From positions 1 through 11,716 of the IMG/VR virus record IMGVR_UViG_2675903352_000003: a stretch of DNA of 11,716 bases; one strand, given 5' to 3'. Positions within the stretch are counted from its first letter, which is position 1; the number at the start of each line of letters is the position of its first letter. Shown piece after piece: positions 4,918-11,716 of this stretch. The stretch comes from a virus (Duplodnaviria > Heunggongvirae > Uroviricota > Caudoviricetes). Made by a program: the position numbers and the translations under genes. The notes under the pieces are model-generated. The model saw nothing but the letters and a program-made list of their open reading frames with translations, ran no database searches and had not been told where the DNA came from.

Positions 4918-5880
4918 GTGAGTTCAGGTGCAAAGGTTATCTCGGCATTTATCCGGGAGACAATTGCAGGCACCACGCCAGCTAGTGGTGACTGGAGTTT
5001 ATTAAAGCGCACAAGCTGGGGAGTAAAACCAACCCAGAATAAAGGCGAAAATAATGAGATCGGTGGTTCTCGTATGGCTCAGGGGGCGACGCCTGGCACT
5101 GTGGATGTCGGCGGTGATGTTGGTACCAAATTTCGCTGGGGCCAACATGATGATTTCCTTGCATCCTGTTTCGGCGCGGAATGGTCAGGAGATTCTCTGA
5201 CTATGGGGAATGAGCGAATAACATTTTCTCTGGCAACATATGCGTCAGATGTAGGAATTGCCTCTGTCGTCAGGGGGGCACAGGTTGGATCGTGGAAAAT
5301 GCAGATTCCTAACGACGGTGATATTACTGCGACAGTCACTTTTGCCGGGCTGGACTGGGAATCAAAGGCCGATGATACAAATTTTATCAAAGGCGAGCCT
5401 GTAGATAGTGCAGGAAAGTTACGTTATTCGTTTAAGGAAGTTTCAGCAGTAAGTCTGAATGGTGTTGCCGGAGGTAACGGTTTTTGTATCGACAGCTTTG
5501 ATATCCAGTTCGATAACAAACTTCAGACCCAGCGTTGTGTCGGGACTGGTTCTCCTTATGCAGGAGCAAATATTCCGACTACTTTTACACCGTCCGGTAC
5601 GGTGACGCTTTCATGGTCTAAAGCCGCGTGGGAAATCTGGAGTAAAACATTAACTGGAGAAACAGTTCCGTTCAGCTTCACGCTTTCGAATGGAGAGGGG
5701 GCATATACTTTCAGTTTCCCGAAGGTTCAGATATCAGGTGAATGGCCTGACGGCGGTAATACCGATATTATCCAGGTCCAGTTGAGTATTACCGCTGCTG
5801 ATGAAGCGCCAACTATCACCAGAAAAAAAGCTTCCCCGGCTGCAGTGATTGCAAAAGCCAGTGCTGAGTCGATTAGTTGA
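4918..5880 (+). CDS. major tail protein, putative
   Basis: 320-aa ORF starting at GTG 4918, with a perfect AGGAGG at 4907-4912 five nt upstream. Gly/Thr/Ser-rich, and located directly upstream of the G / G-T chaperone pair as major tail genes are in siphoviruses. Confidence 0.6.
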   Translation: MSSGAKVISAFIRETIAGTTPASGDWSLLKRTSWGVKPTQNKGENNEIGGSRMAQGATPGTVDVGGDVGTKFRWGQHDDFLASCFGAEWSGDSLTMGNERITFSLATYASDVGIASVVRGAQVGSWKMQIPNDGDITATVTFAGLDWESKADDTNFIKGEPVDSAGKLRYSFKEVSAVSLNGVAGGNGFCIDSFDIQFDNKLQTQRCVGTGSPYAGANIPTTFTPSGTVTLSWSKAAWEIWSKTLTGETVPFSFTLSNGEGAYTFSFPKVQISGEWPDGGNTDIIQVQLSITAADEAPTITRKKASPAAVIAKASAESIS

Positions 5881-5940
5881 TTTTCCGTTATTCCCCCTGT
5901 GGTATTGCGCTACAGGGTGGTGTTTTGAATGAGGTTATAG

Positions 5941-6492
5941 ATGTTTATTCTTGAACAGAAAACTATCATCGGTGGAGAACGCTGGTTTACGCCAATGAAG
6001 GACTTAGAACCTATTGCTGGGTTACAACTGTTGGTGGCAAGCAGTGATAATGATCAGTATCGCTCCCGTAATGCATTAATCCGTCGCCACATTGAGAAAA
6101 TGGATGCCAGTTTGCATGTCGGAACGAAGGCGTTTGATATTGCAAAGGTCGTCGAGGTGGACTCTGTTGATGATTTACTCATTGATAACGCCGCTCGTTA
6201 TCTGCTGAAAGACTGGAAAGGGGTTGGAGAGCTGGTAGATGGTGTTGAGGTCGCGCTGGAATATACACCAGAAAGAGGTGCTGCGCTGCTCAAGCAGAAT
6301 CCAGAGTTGTACTGGCAAATCCTTGCAGAAGCCGCCAGAATCGCCCAGGGAAAAGAGCAGCAAAAGCAGGATACGATAAAAAAGCCATTGCCGCCCAGCG
6401 GTGGATATCGGAGTTCGGGGGAGAAAAGGGTGAAAAGGCAAGGTGGAAACGAGAAAAGCTCAGATTGCCGCCGCTCCCGGAGCCAGAAATAG
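5941..6492 (+). CDS. tail assembly chaperone (lambda gpG analogue)
   Basis: 183-aa ORF with GAGG SD about 6 nt upstream of ATG 5941. It lies immediately upstream of the tape measure gene and contains an A_AAA_AAG slippery heptamer near its 3' end. Its last 108 nt overlap an open -1 frame that continues to 6698. Confidence 0.7.
   Translation: MFILEQKTIIGGERWFTPMKDLEPIAGLQLLVASSDNDQYRSRNALIRRHIEKMDASLHVGTKAFDIAKVVEVDSVDDLLIDNAARYLLKDWKGVGELVDGVEVALEYTPERGAALLKQNPELYWQILAEAARIAQGKEQQKQDTIKKPLPPSGGYRSSGEKRVKRQGGNEKSSDCRRSRSQK
6378..6384 (+). promoter_or_regulatory. programmed -1 ribosomal frameshift slippery heptamer A_AAA_AAG (G to G-T)
   Basis: In the G frame the codons are ata(6376) aaa(6379) aag(6382), so 6378-6384 reads A AAA AAG in X_XXY_YYZ register. 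The -1 frame is open from 6249 through 6695. Confidence 0.6.
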
Positions 6493-6698
6493 ACCCGGTT
6501 ATTAGGGAATTGTTGTACGCCTATTCGGTGATATCCCGTGCCCGGCGTTATGCTGGAATGGCTGGGGTGCCTTTGCCTTTATCTCTGTCAGAGATAAATG
6601 AATATTTAGCCACTCATCCGGTATTGATTGAGCGCGATGAATTTGAAGCAGTGATCTTTGCACTGGATGACCAGTATTTTCAGGAGCAGTGTGTGTAG
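6384..6698 (+). CDS. T segment of the G-T tail assembly chaperone fusion, expressed by -1 frameshift from G
   Basis: The -1 frame relative to G is open from the slip site to TAG at 6696-6698. It has no credible independent start (ORF track uses TTG 6465 with no SD). The arrangement matches the conserved G / G-T pair upstream of tape measure genes. Predicted fusion is about 252 aa (148 from G plus 104). Confidence 0.55.
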   Translation, partial: AIAAQRWISEFGGEKGEKARWKREKLRLPPLPEPEIDPVIRELLYAYSVISRARRYAGMAGVPLPLSLSEINEYLATHPVLIERDEFEAVIFALDDQYFQEQCV

Positions 6699-6818
6699 TT
6701 GTTAATTACGTACACTCTGTTACAGAGATGTGATAGTGTCTTTAATTAAATCGATGATGCTCCTGGAGAAAAGCATTGCGTGGCCTCGTAATCGCTATAT
6801 CTACTATTATGTCGCCTG

Positions 6819-6846
6819 AAACCCACTTCGGTGGGTTTTTTTGTTG
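6819..6846 (+). terminator. intrinsic terminator with cUUCGg tetraloop
   Basis: Perfect 8-bp stem, 6819-6826 (aaacccac) with 6831-6838 (gtgggttt). Loop ttcg at 6827-6830, followed by ttttg ttg. Lies in the 164-bp spacer between T and H, 17 nt upstream of the H start codon. Confidence 0.7.
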
Positions 6847-6862
6847 TCAGGAGTTTTAATAA

Positions 6863-9800
6863 ATGGCAGAGCAGACCTCACGTCTTGCAATAATTATTGA
6901 TAGCTCTGGAGCGAAAAATAATGCTGATAATCTGACCTCATCATTAGTCAAAATGACGCAGGCCGGGGAAACTGCTGCAAATAGCGCAGGGAAAGTGACT
7001 AAGGCAACAGAAGACGAGAAGAACGCGCTCGCAAAATTAAAAGCAGCTATTGATCCAGTTGGTGCCGCAATTGATACTGTCGGTCGACGCTATTCTGAAT
7101 TAAAGAAATATTTCGATAAAGGGCTTATTGATAAAGAAGAATATGAATTTCTTGCCCGTAAACTTAATGAAACCACAGAGGAATTGAGCGGGGTTGCGCA
7201 AGCGCAGAGAGAGGCCGAGAAGGCCGGAAAACTTGCTGCCGCCCAGCAGGAAGCGCAGGCTCAGGCCTTTCAAAGAATGCTGGACAAGATCGACCCTCTG
7301 GCTGCGGCGCTAAGAAATCTTGATCAACAGCAGGATGAACTTAATGCTGCACTTTTTTCCGGGAAAATAAATGGCTCTCAGTTTGATAATTACAGCCGAA
7401 AAATACAGGAAACGCGGCGAGAGCTAACAGGAGAGGCTCAGGCAGAACGAGAAGCAGCAAAAGCGCATGATGAACAAGTTGCTGCTTTGCAACGTCTGAT
7501 TGCTCAACTCGATCCTGTTGGAACAGCTTTTAACCGCCTGACAGAGCAGCAAAAGCAACTCAGCGAAGCAAAAGCCAAGGGGATGCTTTCTCCTGAAATG
7601 TATGAGGAGCTTTCAGGAAAACTCCATGCTATGCGGAGTGAGCTTGAGGCTACTCAATCGCAACTCAGCAAAACCGGAATGTCAGCAAAACAAACGGCTT
7701 TTGCTATGCGCATGTTGCCTGCACAAATGACGGATATTGTTGTTGGGTTGTCCACTGGTCAGTCGCCATTTATGGTGTTAATGCAGCAGGGCGGCCAGCT
7801 AAAAGATATGTTCGGTGGGATTGGCCCGGCGATCAAAGGTGTTGGTTCTTATGTGCTGGGATTAATTAATCCTTTTACCCTGGCCGCAGCAGCCGTTGGC
7901 GCCTTGGGGCTAGCTTACTATAAAGGTTCTCAGGAGCAGGACGAATTTAATAAATCTCTTATTCTTACCGGAAATCAGTTGGGGACAACCAGCGGGCAAT
8001 TAGCCGATATAGCTCAACGTGCCGGGGATGCTGCTGATTCGACAACTGGCGCTGCGGCGGCAGTATTAAACCAGCTTGTGCGTTCGGGAAAGGTCGCGAG
8101 CAGTTCGCTGGAGCAGGTGACGACAGCGATAGTAAAAACGAGCGAATTAACTGGAATATCGACCGATCAACTGGTTAATAATTTCAATGAAATTGCAAAG
8201 GATCCTGTCAGTGCCATATCAAAACTTAATGATCAGTACCATTTTCTGACACTGGCGACTTATAACCAGATTAAGGCGCTACAGGATGAAGGGAACCAGC
8301 AGGAGGCGGCCCGCATTGCGACAGAAGCATACTCATCCTCAATGATCCAGCGCACCAACCAGATTAAAGAAAATCTTGGTTATCTTGAGACTGCATGGAA
8401 AGCTGTCGCAGACTCCGCAAAATGGGCATGGGATTCCATGCTGGATATTGGCCGTGAGGCCTCCCTTGATCAAAAAATCTCAGATGTTCTCCGTCAAATT
8501 GATGAAATAGAAAAAAATACCCGACCCGGAGTTTTCGGGTTAGGTGGCATTGGAGATGGCGGAGCTCAAAATAAAAGGCTGGCACGATTAAAGCAGCAAT
8601 TGGGCGTACTTCAAGCAGAAAAAATTGCTCAGGACGTACTAAATTCATCAATAAACGATTACAACAAGCGACAACAGGAAGGAATTGAACTCAGACAGAG
8701 AGCAGATGCCTTTTCAAAACAATATCAGACCCGGGAGCAGCAGAGAGCTAGTGAACTTGCAAAACTGGAAAAACTAAAGAGTCAGTATTCAAAGGAAGAA
8801 TATAATAATCTTATCGCTCAAATAAATGAGCGTTATAAAGATCCAAAGCAACCAAAGGCGAAAGGTTATTCGGATGATGCAGCCCAACGAATGATTGATC
8901 ATCTGAATCAACAGAATGCGTTACTAAGTTCACAAACTGAATTAACCGTTAAATTAAGTTCCTCTGAACAGGAACTGGTTAAGTGGCGTCAGCAGATTGC
9001 CGACCTGGAGTCACGACCGTCATCAAAATTAACTAAGGATCAGAAATCGCTTCTCTTACACCGGGAAGAAATAACCGCGTTGATGGAGAAAAATGTTGCG
9101 ATTGAAAAAAATAACAGGCTAATCAAGGAGTCAGCCGAAATAGCCGCATGGCGTAGTTCATTGCAGGCTTCTATTGATAATCATCAGCAGGGGTATGACA
9201 TTCAGATCGCTGGTTATGGACTTGGCGATAAAAATCAGCAACGTCAGCAGGAATTACTGCGGATTGAACGTGAATATAACAACCGGCGTCTGCAACTTGA
9301 ACGTGACTATGCGGATAAATCTCGTGGAATGTCTGAACGTGTTTTTCAGGAAAAAATACAGGTCCTGAATGATGCTGTGGAGCGGGAAAAAGAAATTATC
9401 AGGCAGAAAAATGAGCAGCTCGATATTCAGGCTGGAGACTGGGTAAGTGGGGCGTCCCAAGGATTCAATAACTGGTTGGATAACACTAAGGATATCAGCG
9501 GGCAGATAAAATCAACCACGACTCAGATGTTTGATGGGATGACAGATGCGCTTGGTGATTTTGTCACGACAGGTAAGGCAAATTTTCGTTCTTTCGCTAC
9601 CTCCGTGATTTCAGATCTTAGCAGAATAGCATTAAAGGCTTCAATTACCGGGATTTTCGACAGCATTAGCAACAGTTCTTCTGGGGGAATTTTAGGAACT
9701 ATCGGAAGTGCTGTTAGTAAATTTATTCCTAATGCAAAGGGCGGTATTTATGAGTCTCCATCATTGAGTACATATTCAAACGGTATTTATGATTCCCCGC

Positions 9801-10096
9801 AATTTTTTGCTTTTGCAAAAGGTGCTGGTGTTTTTGGTGAGGCTGGACCGGAAGCTATTATGCCATTAACACGAACTTCCGATGGTTCTCTTGGTGTCAG
9901 GGCGATTAATAATAAAGGCGGTAATGGAGGCGGAGACATTAATTACTCTCCTGTATATCAAATTACTATCAAAAATGACGGACAGAATGGAGAGATTGGC
10001 CCTCAGGCAATTAGAACACTTATGGGAATGGTTGATCAGCGAGTGCAGGGCACTTTGTTAAATATGCGACGTGATGGAGGAATGTTAAGTGGCTGA
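6863..10096 (+). CDS. H: tail tape measure protein (lambda gpH homologue)
   Basis: 1077-aa ORF with AGGAG at 6849-6853 nine nt upstream of the ATG. It contains [39 protein letters not shown], which I recognise as matching the conserved segment of lambda H ([11 protein letters not shown]...GGQSPW..LQQGGQVKDSFGG), and a C-terminus [13 protein letters not shown]...[10 protein letters not shown] matching lambda H NDGTNGQIGPAAL...MRDGGLFSG. Long central charged coiled-coil-like region. Confidence 0.95.
7046..7672 (+). repeat. three tandem divergent copies of a ~70-80-aa module in the N-terminal region of the tape measure protein (protein-level repeat)
   Basis: Translated copies align: [23 protein letters not shown]...[30 protein letters not shown]; [24 protein letters not shown]...[29 protein letters not shown]; [24 protein letters not shown]...[28 protein letters not shown]. 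The DNA copies are diverged, so the duplication is old. Confidence 0.6.
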
Positions 10097-10421
10097 AGAA
10101 TTCCACTGGTTACCAGAGGATGGAATGAAAACAGAAAATAAACCATCGATAAAAACTGTAAGATTTGGCGATGGTTATGAGCAACGAAGTCCAAATGGAC
10201 TTAATCATTCTCTACGTGTTTTCACCTGTGATTTCAAGGTTGAGGCGAATGAACGTGATTCATTCGAAAATTTTTTAGCACGGCATGGAGGCTATAAATC
10301 TTTTTTTTGGCGTCCACCTGGTGTTAACAGAAAAATCAGAGTGGTGTGTCGAACGTGGTCAGCTACAGAACATATCACCTATACCGATTTTTCGTGTCAG
10401 TTTGATGAAGTGGTGATCTGA
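10089..10421 (+). CDS. M: minor tail protein M (lambda gpM homologue)
   Basis: 110-aa ORF starting at GTG 10089, with GGAGG at 10076-10080 eight nt upstream; it overlaps the end of H by 8 nt. The N-terminus [28 protein letters not shown] aligns with lambda M as I recall it (KTFRWKVKPGMDVASVPSVRKVRFGDGY), and size matches lambda M (109 aa). Divergent from lambda overall. Confidence 0.85.
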
Positions 10422-11119
10422 TGCAGGATATCCGGCAGGAAACACTGAATGAGTGTACAAAAGCGGAGCAATCCGCGCTGATCGTGCTCTGGGAAGTCGA
10501 TCTGACAGAGGTCGGCGGAGAGCGTTATTTTTTCTGTAATGAGCAGAACGAAAAAGACGAACCAGTCACCTGGCAGGGGCGGCAGTATCAGGCGTACCCC
10601 ATTCAGGGGAGCGGATTTGAGATGAACGGTAAAGGAGCCAGCGCCAGGCCAACTCTGAAAGTCTCTAATCTGCACGGCATGGTCACCGGGATGGTGGAAG
10701 ATTTGCAGAGTCTGGTCGGCGGAACGGTGGTCAGGCGTAAGGTTTACGCCCGTTTTCTGGATGCGGTGAACTTCGTCAACGGAAACATCGAGGCAGACCC
10801 GGAGCAGGAGGCGATCAGCCGCTGGCGCATCGAGCAGTGCAGCGAACTGAGCGCGGTCAGTGCCTCCTTTGTGCTCTCCACACCGACGGAAACGGACGGC
10901 ACTGTTTTTCCGGGACGTATCATGCTGGCCAACACCTGCACCTGGACCTATCGCGGCGATGAGTGCGGTTATAGCGGTCCGGCGGTCGCGGATGAATATG
11001 ACCAGCCAACGTCCGATATCACGAAGGATAAATGCAGCAAATGCCTGAGTGGCTGTAAGTTCCGCAATAACGTCGCCAACTTTGGCGGCTTCCTTTCCAT
11101 TAACAAACTTTCGCAGTAA
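10421..11119 (+). CDS. L: minor tail protein L (lambda gpL homologue), C-terminal Cys cluster
   Basis: 232-aa ORF. Its ATG overlaps the M stop by 1 nt (tgATG). [12 protein letters not shown]...VGGERYFFCNEQNEK...GRIMLANTCTWTYRGDECGYSGP...KDKCSKCLSGCKFRNN matches lambda gpL almost residue-for-residue from memory, with the same length. The C-terminal cysteines correspond to the reported iron-sulfur cluster ligands of lambda gpL. Confidence 0.95.
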   Translation: MQDIRQETLNECTKAEQSALIVLWEVDLTEVGGERYFFCNEQNEKDEPVTWQGRQYQAYPIQGSGFEMNGKGASARPTLKVSNLHGMVTGMVEDLQSLVGGTVVRRKVYARFLDAVNFVNGNIEADPEQEAISRWRIEQCSELSAVSASFVLSTPTETDGTVFPGRIMLANTCTWTYRGDECGYSGPAVADEYDQPTSDITKDKCSKCLSGCKFRNNVANFGGFLSINKLSQ

Positions 11120-11123
11120 ACCC

Positions 11124-11716
11124 ATGACAGAAACAGAATCAGCGATTCTGGCGCACGCCCGGCGATGTGCGCCAGCGGAGTCGTGCGGCTTCGTGGTGAG
11201 AACGCCGGAGGGAGAAAGATATTTTCCCTGCGTGAATATCTCCGGTGAGCCGGAGGATTATTTCAGGCTGTCGACGGAGGACTGGCTGCAGGCAGAAATG
11301 CAGGGGGAGATTGTGGCGCTGGTCCACAGCCACCCCGGTGGTCTGCCCTGGCTGAGTGAGGCTGACCGGCGGCTGCAGGTGCAGAGTGATTTGCCGTGGT
11401 GGCTGGTCTGCCGGGGTGAGATTCACAAGTTCCGCTGTGTGCCACATCTTACCGGGCGGCGCTTTGAACACGGGGTGACGGACTGTTACACGCTGTTCCG
11501 GGACGCTTACCATCTGGCGGGAATTGAGATGCCGGATTTTCACCGCGGGGATGACTGGTGGCGTAACGGTCAGAATCTCTATCTGGATAATCTGGAGGCC
11601 ACAGGGCTGTATCAGGTGCCGTTGTCAGCGGCGCAGCCGGGCGATGTGCTGCTGTGCTGTTTTGGTTCATCGGTGCCGAATCATGCCGCCATTTACTGTG
11701 GTGACGGCGAGCTGCT
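11124..11716 (+). CDS. K: tail assembly protein K (lambda gpK homologue), 3'-truncated by window end
   Basis: ATG at 11124, 4 nt after the L stop, open to the window end (not in the ORF track because no stop is reached). Translation MTETESAILAHARRCAPAESCGFVV...EIVALVHSHPGGLPWLSEADRR...GVTDCYTLFRDAYHLAG carries a JAMM/MPN-type motif (HSHPGG...SEAD) followed by an NlpC/P60-like Cys (DCYTLF), as in lambda K. Confidence 0.9.
   Translation, partial: MTETESAILAHARRCAPAESCGFVVRTPEGERYFPCVNISGEPEDYFRLSTEDWLQAEMQGEIVALVHSHPGGLPWLSEADRRLQVQSDLPWWLVCRGEIHKFRCVPHLTGRRFEHGVTDCYTLFRDAYHLAGIEMPDFHRGDDWWRNGQNLYLDNLEATGLYQVPLSAAQPGDVLLCCFGSSVPNHAAIYCGDGEL

What the first reader, a model, noticed from the sequence alone, without database searches (positions are those of the whole stretch)
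6378..6384. Programmed -1 frameshift site (A_AAA_AAG) generating a G-T tail chaperone fusion, with 108 nt of dual-frame coding
A canonical slippery heptamer sits in-register in the G frame at 6378-6384, and the -1 frame stays open from there to 6698. G itself continues 36 codons past the slip site into a strongly basic tail (KKPLPPSGGYRSSGEKRVKRQGGNEKSSDCRRSRSQK), while the same nucleotides in the -1 frame encode the start of the T domain. The heptamer differs from lambda's G_GGA_AAG. The frameshift is conserved biology; the exact site is my prediction.
Basis: partly seen in the sequence, partly recalled or inferred. Interest (0 to 1): 0.5.

Follow-up and report, generated by a model that had tools for sequence, protein, structure and literature searches.

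The report
Phage tail chaperone G-T frameshift site
This is the ordinary, widely conserved ribosomal -1 frameshift that lets a lambda-like prophage make a short and a long tail-assembly chaperone from one stretch of DNA. The only oddity is that this copy has lost the usual stop codon just after the slip site.

Summary
AAAAAAG at 6378-6384 is in register (A_AAA_AAG) with the ORF at 5941-6492, and the -1 frame is open to 6698. The locus lies between a tail tube gene (4918-5880) and a tape measure gene (6863-10096) in a Rac-like (YdaY family) prophage.

Comparative evidence strongly supports a -1 ribosomal frameshift at this heptamer:
- All 80 IMG/VR relatives, plus the Klebsiella-, Salmonella- and bat-faeces-derived relatives examined, carry the heptamer at the same codon.
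- Across 50 distinct sequences the block 6377-6386 (TAAAAAAGCC) never varies.
- Synonymous changes follow frame 0 up to 6375 and frame -1 from 6389 onwards.
- The -1 product is conserved from its first residue.
- The -1 frame has no start codon for 27 codons after the heptamer.

The "108 nt of dual coding" with a basic tail is real in this sequence but is a minority state. Most relatives read AAA AAG CCA TAG, so G stops two codons after the site. Here TAG is TTG, which is silent in the T frame, and the frame-0 tail shows no coding constraint. I found no stimulatory RNA structure.

This is a new, unannotated member of a well-known kind. No fusion protein has been measured.

The parts
4918..5880 (+). 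Major tail tube gene (320 aa), the upstream neighbour that defines the G-T position
   Evidence: Pfam PF18906 Phage_tube_2, E=3.7e-31. Annotated 'phage tail tube protein' in the 99%-identical E. coli MEI003 prophage.
5931..5934 (+). GAGG Shine-Dalgarno-like sequence 6 nt before the G start codon
   Evidence: Read directly from the sequence. Homologues conserve residues from M1, I3, R14 and W15 onwards, which supports 5941 as the true start.
5941..6492 (+). G-like tail assembly chaperone, frame-0 product (183 aa here, 149 aa in most relatives); YdaY family
   Evidence: ORF. PHROG 313 'Tail assembly chaperone', E=4e-44. Precomputed Pfam PF27119 Phage_YdaY. Fold matches to phage tail and tape-measure chaperones in BFVD.
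6378..6384 (+). Slippery heptamer A_AAA_AAG, the proposed site of the -1 shift. tRNA-Lys on AAA/AAG re-pairs with AAA/AAA.
   Evidence: In register. Present at the same codon in all 80 IMG/VR loci, in the Klebsiella phage and the Flyfo siphovirus, and in L088 and L089. The block 6377-6386 is invariant in 50 distinct sequences.
6384..6698 (+). T segment, read in the -1 frame (104 aa plus stop). It forms the C-terminal part of the predicted 252-aa G-T fusion.
   Evidence: Translation. PHROG 1189, E=1e-35, and the C-terminal part of PHROG 313. Weak hit to Pfam PF23812 Phage_TAC_18. Conserved from its first residue in relatives. Synonymous-biased substitutions in this frame.
6388..6390 (+). TTG codon that is the frame-0 stop TAG in most relatives. 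This is the stop loss that creates the long tail on G.
   Evidence: Alignment. The change at 6389 is synonymous in the T frame (ATA->ATT, Ile). Allele counts at 6389 are A 30, C 13, T 7 among distinct sequences.
6391..6492 (+). Lineage-specific frame-0 read-through of T-coding DNA: the basic Gly/Ser/Arg/Lys tail of G, ending at TAG 6490-6492
   Evidence: Frame 0 shows 19 synonymous against 104 nonsynonymous changes over 6385-6492. The one difference inside the window lineage (D/G) is silent in frame -1.
6863..10096 (+). Tape measure protein gene (1077 aa), the downstream neighbour
   Evidence: Pfam TMP_2 E=7.6e-82, Tape_meas_lam_C E=7.8e-26, TMP_4 E=1.7e-24.

Best explanation
The window carries the tail module of a Rac-like lambdoid prophage of Enterobacteriaceae. 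Ribosomes translating the chaperone gene G (from 5941) reach A_AAA_AAG with tRNA-Lys in the P site (AAA 6379-6381) and the A site (AAG 6382-6384). A minority slip back one base to AAA/AAA (6378-6383) and continue with GCC (6384-6386) in the -1 frame to 6698. This yields a 252-aa G-T fusion with the junction ...QDTIKK|AIAAQRW.... The majority stay in frame. In most relatives those ribosomes stop two codons later, giving a 149-aa G. In this lineage the stop is mutated (TAG->TTG), so they read on to 6492 and add an unselected 35-residue basic tail. By analogy with lambda (inference, not tested here), many copies of G and a few of G-T would coat the tape measure protein, and the T domain would recruit the tube protein. 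Shown here: register, open frames, conservation of the site, and the switch of coding constraint. Inferred: that slippage happens, its efficiency, and the protein functions.
For: (1) Position: the locus lies between the tail tube gene and the tape measure gene.
(2) Family: G hits PHROG 313 'tail assembly chaperone' at profile positions 21-148, and the T segment hits positions 180-246 of the same 258-position profile, so the family includes fused products. The AF2 model of G (pLDDT 76) matches tail and tape-measure chaperones in BFVD, several of them 230-270 aa long.
(3) Heptamer conservation: it sits at the identical in-register codon in 80/80 IMG/VR loci at 76-100% amino-acid identity, in a Klebsiella phage at 66% and the Flyfo siphovirus, and in Salmonella and Klebsiella-like contigs.
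(4) Shift interval: in 54 loci the -1 frame is closed by TAA 27 nt upstream of the heptamer and frame 0 stops 2 codons after it. The shift is thereby confined to 34 nt, in which A_AAA_AAG is the only canonical site.
(5) Coding constraint: synonymous/nonsynonymous counts are 277/116 in frame 0 against 12/388 in frame -1 for 6250-6375. They are 19/104 against 83/33 for 6385-6492. The last variable frame-0 third position is 6375, the first variable frame -1 third position is 6389, and 6377-6386 is invariant.
(6) No independent start: the first ATG/GTG/TTG in the -1 frame is at 6465, 27 codons after the heptamer, or later in relatives. Yet those 27 codons are conserved and synonymous-biased in frame -1 (192/121 against 40/270 in frame 0).
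(7) Distant relatives keep the A_AAG A-site element at the aligned position even without an A run: Erwinia phage Gungnir39 has C_GCA_AAG followed by TAA, and Pseudomonas phage Aurca01 has G_GAA_AAG.
(8) Literature: A_AAA_AAG is the most shift-prone heptamer in E. coli, a 3' CC context is the most shift-prone dinucleotide, and the G-T frameshift is widely conserved in long-tailed phages (PMC5009743). Lambda uses GGGAAAG at about 4% (PMC3296357).
Against: There is no experimental evidence of the fusion protein for this or any member of the family, and none of the database records examined annotates a frameshift. No downstream stimulatory structure (z = +0.84 and +1.23; alifold -7.2 kcal/mol with an unfavourable covariation term) and no clear upstream SD-like stimulator was found, so the efficiency is unknown. 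There is no detectable sequence similarity to lambda G or T. The substitution counts are made against one reference and are not phylogenetically independent. NCBI's pipeline flags the G gene of the 99%-identical MEI003 prophage as a pseudogene missing its C-terminus, so this copy could be impaired.
Confidence: 0.88

Rival explanations
1. Transcriptional slippage: RNA polymerase adds one A in the A6 run. The A7 mRNA then encodes the same ...IKKAIAAQ... fusion without any ribosomal slip.
For: The site contains six consecutive A. An A7 transcript would give a protein identical to the -1 ribosomal product, so peptide data cannot separate the two mechanisms (direct reasoning from the sequence).
Against: From my own knowledge, not tested here, efficient slippage by bacterial RNA polymerase needs runs of about 8-9 A or T or longer. 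Relatives that keep the G-T architecture have only GCA AAG or GAA AAG at the aligned site. Those sequences can support A_AAG tRNA slippage (PMC5009743) but not polymerase stuttering. The terminal G and the register are invariant, which matters for ribosomal slippage but not for transcriptional slippage.
Confidence: 0.04
2. T is a separate gene translated from its own start (TTG 6465 or TTG 6513, as gene callers annotate in relatives), and no fusion is made.
For: PGAP and the phage records annotate a separate 'hypothetical protein' of 61-77 aa at the equivalent of 6465-6698 or 6513-6698. An AGGGA lies 5 nt before the TTG at 6513.
Against: The 27 codons between the heptamer and 6465 contain no start codon. 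They are nevertheless conserved as protein from the first residue in relatives down to 29% G identity, with 192 synonymous against 121 nonsynonymous changes in frame -1 versus 40 against 270 in frame 0. The candidate start differs between relatives (TTG, GTG or ATG at different codons).
Confidence: 0.03
3. The shift happens at another site in the overlap, such as G_GGA_AAA (6348-6354) or G_CAA_AAG (6360-6366). Both are reachable in this lineage because its -1 frame is open from about 6249.
For: Both motifs are in register in the window, and the -1 frame is open 45 codons upstream here.
Against: In most relatives 6348-6354 is GGGTAAA, which puts a -1-frame stop at 6351-6353, and 6360-6366 is GCAGAAG. 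Substitutions between 6354 and 6375 are synonymous in frame 0 and nonsynonymous in frame -1. A terminal AAA is much less shift-prone in E. coli than AAG (PMC5009743). A small extra contribution from these sites in this lineage is not excluded.
Confidence: 0.03
4. This particular copy is a decaying prophage gene. The lost G stop makes a defective chaperone, and the locus is no longer under selection.
For: PGAP calls the MEI003 orthologue a pseudogene. The window-type allele is rare: 6 of 80 IMG/VR loci, and only 2-3 of 1074 E. coli records reach the >=95% identity bands.
Against: The T frame, the heptamer and all neighbouring tail genes are intact. The same TTG allele occurs in a diverged Salmonella lineage, and other long tails occur in Klebsiella-like and Pseudomonas relatives. 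Frame-0 tail lengths of 1, 7, about 20, 25 and 35 residues all persist, which suggests the tail is tolerated. This rival concerns fitness, not mechanism.
Confidence: 0.1

Closest known systems
Bacteriophage lambda G / G-T programmed -1 frameshift (Levin, Hendrix and Casjens 1993; Xu, Hendrix and Duda 2004, 2013, 2014, as summarised in PMC5009743 and PMC3296357)
   Same: Two overlapping ORFs lie between the major tail gene and the tape measure gene. The second is in the -1 frame and has no start of its own. An in-register X_XXY_YYZ heptamer ending in A_AAG is decoded by tRNA-Lys. In the typical family member the frame-0 stop comes shortly after the site (2 codons here, 5 codons in lambda).
   Different: The heptamer is A_AAA_AAG rather than G_GGA_AAG. 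There is no detectable sequence similarity to lambda G or T. In this copy G has a 35-residue tail because its stop is lost. Product ratio and function are unmeasured.
E. coli dnaX gamma/tau -1 frameshift
   Same: Identical slippery heptamer, A_AAA_AAG, and the same tRNA-Lys re-pairing (PMC5009743).
   Different: From my own knowledge, dnaX has an upstream SD-like element and a downstream stem-loop that raise the efficiency to about 50%. Neither was found here, so a low, lambda-like efficiency is expected. In dnaX the shifted product is the shorter one.
YdaY of the E. coli K-12 Rac prophage (Pfam PF27119 Phage_YdaY; PHROG 313 and PHROG 1189)
   Same: The window's G is a full-length orthologue, about 92% identical at the DNA level to the common E. 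coli form annotated ydaY. The precomputed Pfam family is PF27119.
   Different: In K-12-type genomes the match starts only at query base 140, so ydaY is 5'-truncated there. RefSeq annotates ydaY from an internal ATG and annotates the T part as a separate hypothetical protein, with no frameshift.
Single-tRNA A_AAG slippage sites (for example IS1222 G_CGA_AAG and Bacillus cdd A_CGA_AAG; PMC5009743)
   Same: The more distant relatives of this family (Erwinia Gungnir39 C_GCA_AAG, Pseudomonas Aurca01 G_GAA_AAG) keep only the A_AAG element at the aligned site.
   Different: The window has the full tandem-slippage heptamer.

Membership tests
Conserved G / G-T tail assembly chaperone frameshift of long-tailed phages | The gene pair lies immediately between the major tail (tube) gene and the tape measure gene | tested here: met
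   Tube 4918-5880 (PF18906), G 5941-, T -6698, tape measure 6863-10096 (TMP_2, Tape_meas_lam_C)..
Conserved G / G-T tail assembly chaperone frameshift of long-tailed phages | The downstream ORF overlaps the upstream one in the -1 frame and has no start codon or ribosome binding site of its own at its conserved N-terminus | tested here: met
   The -1 frame is open across the end of G. The first ATG/GTG/TTG is 27 or more codons into the conserved T sequence in all relatives.
Conserved G / G-T tail assembly chaperone frameshift of long-tailed phages | An in-register slippery sequence lies inside the overlap and is conserved among relatives | tested here: met
   A_AAA_AAG is present in 80/80 IMG/VR loci and in 4 more relatives at the same codon. 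The block 6377-6386 is invariant in 50 distinct sequences.
Conserved G / G-T tail assembly chaperone frameshift of long-tailed phages | Both reading frames are under protein-coding selection on their own side of the site | tested here: met
   Synonymous/nonsynonymous counts flip from frame 0 (277/116) to frame -1 (83/33) at the heptamer. The counts are not phylogenetically corrected.
Conserved G / G-T tail assembly chaperone frameshift of long-tailed phages | Two products, G in excess and G-T as a minor fusion, are detected and required for tail assembly, and neither is present in virions | not testable with these tools
   Needs expression, immunoblot or mass spectrometry, and genetics.
Lambda gpG / gpT sequence families | Detectable sequence homology to lambda G and T | tested here: not met
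   hhalign of the G family profile against lambda G gives probability 0.08. BLASTP of T against lambda T finds no alignment. No Pfam lambda-type family is hit. This locus works like lambda G-T but is not a sequence-family member.
Phage tail assembly chaperone families (PHROG 313; PF27119 Phage_YdaY) | Significant profile match of G, with T matching the C-terminal part of the fused profile | tested here: met
   PHROG 313: E=4e-44 for G (profile positions 21-148) and E=5e-3 for T (profile positions 180-246). PHROG 1189: E=1e-35 for T. PF27119 is assigned to all homologues.
Phage tail assembly chaperone families (PHROG 313; PF27119 Phage_YdaY) | Fold shared with characterised tail assembly chaperones | tested here: inconclusive
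   The AF2 model has pLDDT 76 and pTM 0.70. There is no PDB match. BFVD matches to predicted chaperone structures are only E about 1e-3 with TM 0.4-0.5.
dnaX-type stimulated -1 frameshift cassette | Downstream stem-loop or pseudoknot 5-9 nt after the heptamer, and/or an upstream SD-like stimulator | tested here: not met
   Folding is no better than for shuffled sequence (z = +0.84 and +1.23). There is no conserved or covarying helix in 8 relatives; the only small hairpin overlaps the heptamer itself.

The most novel reading that the evidence does not exclude
The long frame-0 extension of G (35 basic residues overprinted on the start of T) might be a recurrent functional variant rather than a neutral accident. 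Similar tails of 20-35 residues occur in a diverged Salmonella lineage, a Klebsiella-like contig and a Pseudomonas phage. Such a tail might, for example, change how G binds the tape measure protein, or change the G:G-T balance. That would make this a small natural case of true dual coding at a frameshift site.
Probability: 0.05. Interest if true: 0.45.

Novelty: new member of a known kind. Interest (0 to 1): 0.2.

Why it matters
The main value is for annotation. About a fifth of complete E. coli genomes (1074 of 5426) carry this prophage tail module. In every record examined, G (ydaY) and T are annotated as two unrelated small proteins, G sometimes from an internal start or as a pseudogene, and no ribosomal slippage is recorded. 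Recognising YdaY plus the downstream 'hypothetical protein' as a G / G-T chaperone pair gives a function to a K-12 y-gene family and a correct joined CDS. The family also offers a tidy natural series for studying what the G-T mechanism tolerates: a full heptamer, A_AAG only, and frame-0 tails of 1 to 35 residues. It does not change the understanding of frameshifting.

Tried and rejected
- Downstream stimulatory RNA: single-sequence folds of 6385-6470 and 6340-6520, and a consensus fold of 8 relatives, gave nothing above shuffled controls.
- Bare-motif statistics: AAAAAAG is not enriched in the window, so I dropped motif rarity as an argument.
- Pfam and NCBIfam: no curated family hit for G in the local copies. 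Only a sub-threshold PF23812 hit on T.
- PDB by sequence profile and by Foldseek: no match.
- Literature searches for 'ydaY' and for Rac prophage plus tail assembly chaperone plus frameshift: nothing relevant.
- Natural in-frame fusions as support: P0001 (240 aa) is a fusion, but through a deletion upstream of the heptamer in a single contig. P0002 and P0004 look like frameshifted or erroneous assemblies. I did not use them as evidence.
- The alternative heptamer G_GGA_AAA at 6348-6354: considered and rejected as the conserved site.
- Cluster of invariant third positions just upstream of the heptamer: 7 of the last 14 codons. It could hint at an upstream element, but those codons are mostly two-fold degenerate Lys, Gln and Glu codons, so I make no claim.

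Full report
**1. The observation**

The window sequence shows AAAAAAG at 6378-6384. The ORF starting at ATG 5941, preceded by GAGG at 5931-5934, reads GAT ACG ATA AAA AAG over 6370-6384. The heptamer is therefore in the canonical register A_AAA_AAG. Frame 0 continues to the TAG at 6490-6492 and gives a 183-aa product ending KKPLPPSGGYRSSGEKRVKRQGGNEKSSDCRRSRSQK. The -1 frame is open from about 6249 to 6698 and reads ...GYDKKAIAAQRWISEFGGEKGEK....

The motif by itself is not unusual: there are 6 copies in the window against 4.0 expected.

**2. Context**

- The upstream ORF 4918-5880 is a tail tube protein (PF18906, E=3.7e-31).
- The downstream ORF 6863-10096 is a tape measure protein (TMP_2, Tape_meas_lam_C, TMP_4).
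- Lambda-type M and L tail proteins follow.
- The whole window is 98.6% identical to a prophage of E. coli MEI003 and about 92% identical to prophages in many E. coli genomes.
- The 1-kb region around the finding matches 1074 of 5426 complete E. coli genomes. Its first gene is annotated there as ydaY, the Rac prophage gene of K-12.
- G hits PHROG 313 'tail assembly chaperone' (E=4e-44). T hits PHROG 1189, and also the C-terminal part of the same 258-position PHROG 313 profile.
- Homologues carry the precomputed Pfam family PF27119, Phage_YdaY.
- An AlphaFold model of G (pLDDT 76) has no PDB counterpart. In BFVD its best matches are proteins named tail assembly, pre-tape-measure or tape-measure chaperone, several of them 230-270 aa long.
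- There is no detectable similarity to lambda G or T.

**3. Comparative test of the frameshift**

I collected 80 IMG/VR loci encoding G relatives at 76-100% identity. I added a Klebsiella phage (66%), the Flyfo siphovirus, Erwinia phage Gungnir39 (51%) and Pseudomonas phage Aurca01 (29%), and two contigs found through protein hits.

- *Heptamer.* Every locus down to 66% identity has AAAAAAG at the same in-register codon.
[quoted passage not shown].
- *Shift interval.* In 54 loci the -1 frame is closed by a TAA 27 nt before the heptamer and frame 0 stops two codons after it. That leaves a 34-nt interval in which the shift must occur, and A_AAA_AAG is its only canonical slippery site.
- *No independent start.* The first possible start codon in the -1 frame is 27 codons after the heptamer (TTG 6465), or later and at different places in relatives.

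**4. Switch of coding constraint**

The table gives changed codons, counted against the window as reference, as synonymous/nonsynonymous.

| Region | Frame 0 | Frame -1 |
|---|---|---|
| 6250-6375 | 277/116 | 12/388 |
| 6385-6492 | 19/104 | 83/33 |
| 6385-6464 (before any possible start codon) | 40/270 | 192/121 |

Site by site across 50 distinct sequences, variable positions fall on frame-0 third positions up to 6375. Nothing varies over 6377-6386 (TAAAAAAGCC). From 6389 onwards, variation falls on frame -1 third positions: 6389, 6392, 6395, 6398 and so on. The reading-frame switch is thus bracketed to about 12 nt centred on the heptamer.

Overall, 122 of 148 third positions in G vary, yet 6378, 6381 and 6384 never do. 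These counts are not corrected for phylogeny, but the pattern is qualitative and consistent.

**5. The long overlap is a lineage-specific stop loss**

Most relatives read AAA AAG CCA TAG, so G is 149 aa with its stop two codons after the site. This is much like lambda, where the stop is 5 codons after G_GGA_AAG.

The window, MEI003 and six IMG/VR loci have TTG instead of TAG. The change (6389 A->T) is silent in the T frame (ATA->ATT). Frame 0 then runs on to the next chance stop. That stop is created by the conserved T codons GAA ATA GAC (E I D).

Frame-0 tail lengths seen in the family:

| Tail length (residues) | Where seen |
|---|---|
| 1 | majority (63 of 80 IMG/VR loci) |
| 7 | 11 IMG/VR loci |
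| about 20 | Pseudomonas phage Aurca01 |
| 25 | Klebsiella-like contig L089 |
| 35 | window lineage; Salmonella contig L088, with the same TTG |

The only difference within the window lineage in this stretch (Asp/Gly in frame 0) is silent in frame -1.

The basic tail is therefore the out-of-frame reading of purine-rich T-coding DNA. It will be translated in this phage, but nothing suggests it is selected. NCBI's pipeline calls the MEI003 copy a pseudogene lacking its C-terminus. Whether the tail harms function is unknown.

**6. Mechanism**

The best explanation is tandem -1 slippage of tRNA-Lys on A_AAA_AAG. This is the most shift-prone heptamer in E. coli and the one used by dnaX, and a 3' CC context, present here, is the most shift-prone dinucleotide (PMC5009743).

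I found no downstream stimulatory structure. Folding energies are no better than for shuffled sequence. Eight relatives share no covarying helix, and the one small hairpin includes the last two bases of the heptamer, so it would be melted when the ribosome is at the site. A low, lambda-like efficiency is therefore expected; lambda shifts at about 4% (PMC3296357). That figure is inference for this locus.

The more distant relatives lack the A run but keep A_AAG at the aligned codon: C_GCA_AAG followed by TAA in Gungnir39, and G_GAA_AAG in Aurca01. This fits ribosomal single-tRNA slippage, known for example at G_CGA_AAG in IS1222, and argues against polymerase stuttering as the family's mechanism.

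The functional roles are taken from lambda and were not tested: G and the G part of G-T binding the tape measure protein, and T recruiting the tube protein.

**7. Rivals**

- *Transcriptional slippage (+1 A).* It would give the identical protein, but six A is short, and relatives without an A run keep the architecture.
- *Independent initiation of T.* It is contradicted by the conserved, start-less first 27 codons.
- *Shifting at G_GGA_AAA (6348-6354) or G_CAA_AAG (6360-6366).* This is possible only in this lineage, and those sites are not conserved. Most relatives have a -1-frame stop there.
- *Decay of this copy.* It cannot be excluded, but it concerns fitness rather than mechanism.

**8. 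Verdict**

It is an unannotated member of the very well-known G / G-T class, with the commonest bacterial slippery heptamer. Interest is low, and the practical value lies in correcting the annotation of the YdaY family.

Noticed in passing
window 5823-5829 (inside the tail tube gene 4918-5880): A second in-register slippery-type heptamer, A_AAA_AAA (an A7 run), lies 17 codons before the tube gene's stop. In relatives the run is A9 (29 loci) or A8 (5 loci, where the 1-nt shorter run would truncate the protein as ...RKKIPRLP*). A -1 shift in the window would give ...RKKKLPRLQ* (my own translation of the sequence). This could be homopolymer sequencing error, phase-variable truncation, or slippage that makes a tube protein without its last 17 residues.
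   Followed up: partly
window 6818-6839 and 5895-5917: Two terminator-like hairpins lie inside the late tail operon. A strong one, GAAACCCAC-TTCG-GTGGGTTTT followed by TTTGTTG, sits in the 165-nt spacer between T and the tape measure gene. A weaker one sits between the tube gene and G. Their number is not above the shuffled expectation (2 against 1.4).
   Followed up: no
L088 2514-3074 (Salmonella contig); L084 2104-2877 (Klebsiella phage); compare window 6699-6862: The T-to-tape-measure spacer is a cargo insertion site in relatives. It holds an Ail/Lom-family outer membrane protein gene in the Salmonella contig, and a hypothetical plus a membrane protein in the Klebsiella phage. The window's spacer with its terminator may be an empty or remnant version of this site.
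   Followed up: no
window 5941-6030; L002 1632-1991: RefSeq annotates ydaY from an internal ATG (120 codons). Yet the N-terminal 30 residues from ATG 5941 are conserved across the family (M1, I3, R14, W15 and P18 are invariant). The annotated start is probably too far downstream.
   Followed up: partly
E. coli K-12-type genomes (hits H27-H34); protein P0065: In K-12 derivatives the match begins only at query base 140, next to ynaK (ParB/Srx-like). One database protein of 246 aa joins a ParB N-terminal domain (PF02195) to the YdaY domain. This is consistent with the Rac deletion having fused or abutted these genes.
   Followed up: no
window 6343-6384: Third codon positions just upstream of the heptamer are unusually invariant: 7 of the last 14 codons of the G part, against about 14% elsewhere in G. 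This may reflect only the two-fold degenerate Lys, Gln and Glu codons there, or a sequence-level constraint such as an upstream modulator of shifting.
   Followed up: no
L085 (Erwinia phage Gungnir39) 1680-1700: This relative has no canonical heptamer. G ends GTC GCA AAG TAA, with the stop codon directly after A_AAG, and T continues in the -1 frame (VIEAQEWLNEFGG...). A CAA AAA G motif lies 6 codons upstream in the same short overlap. The exact shift site in this phage is open.
   Followed up: partly
window 10397-11125 (- strand): A 242-aa ORF runs antisense across the whole minor tail protein L gene (10421-11119, PF05100 E=2e-99). It is most likely a chance shadow ORF of the L frame.
   Followed up: no
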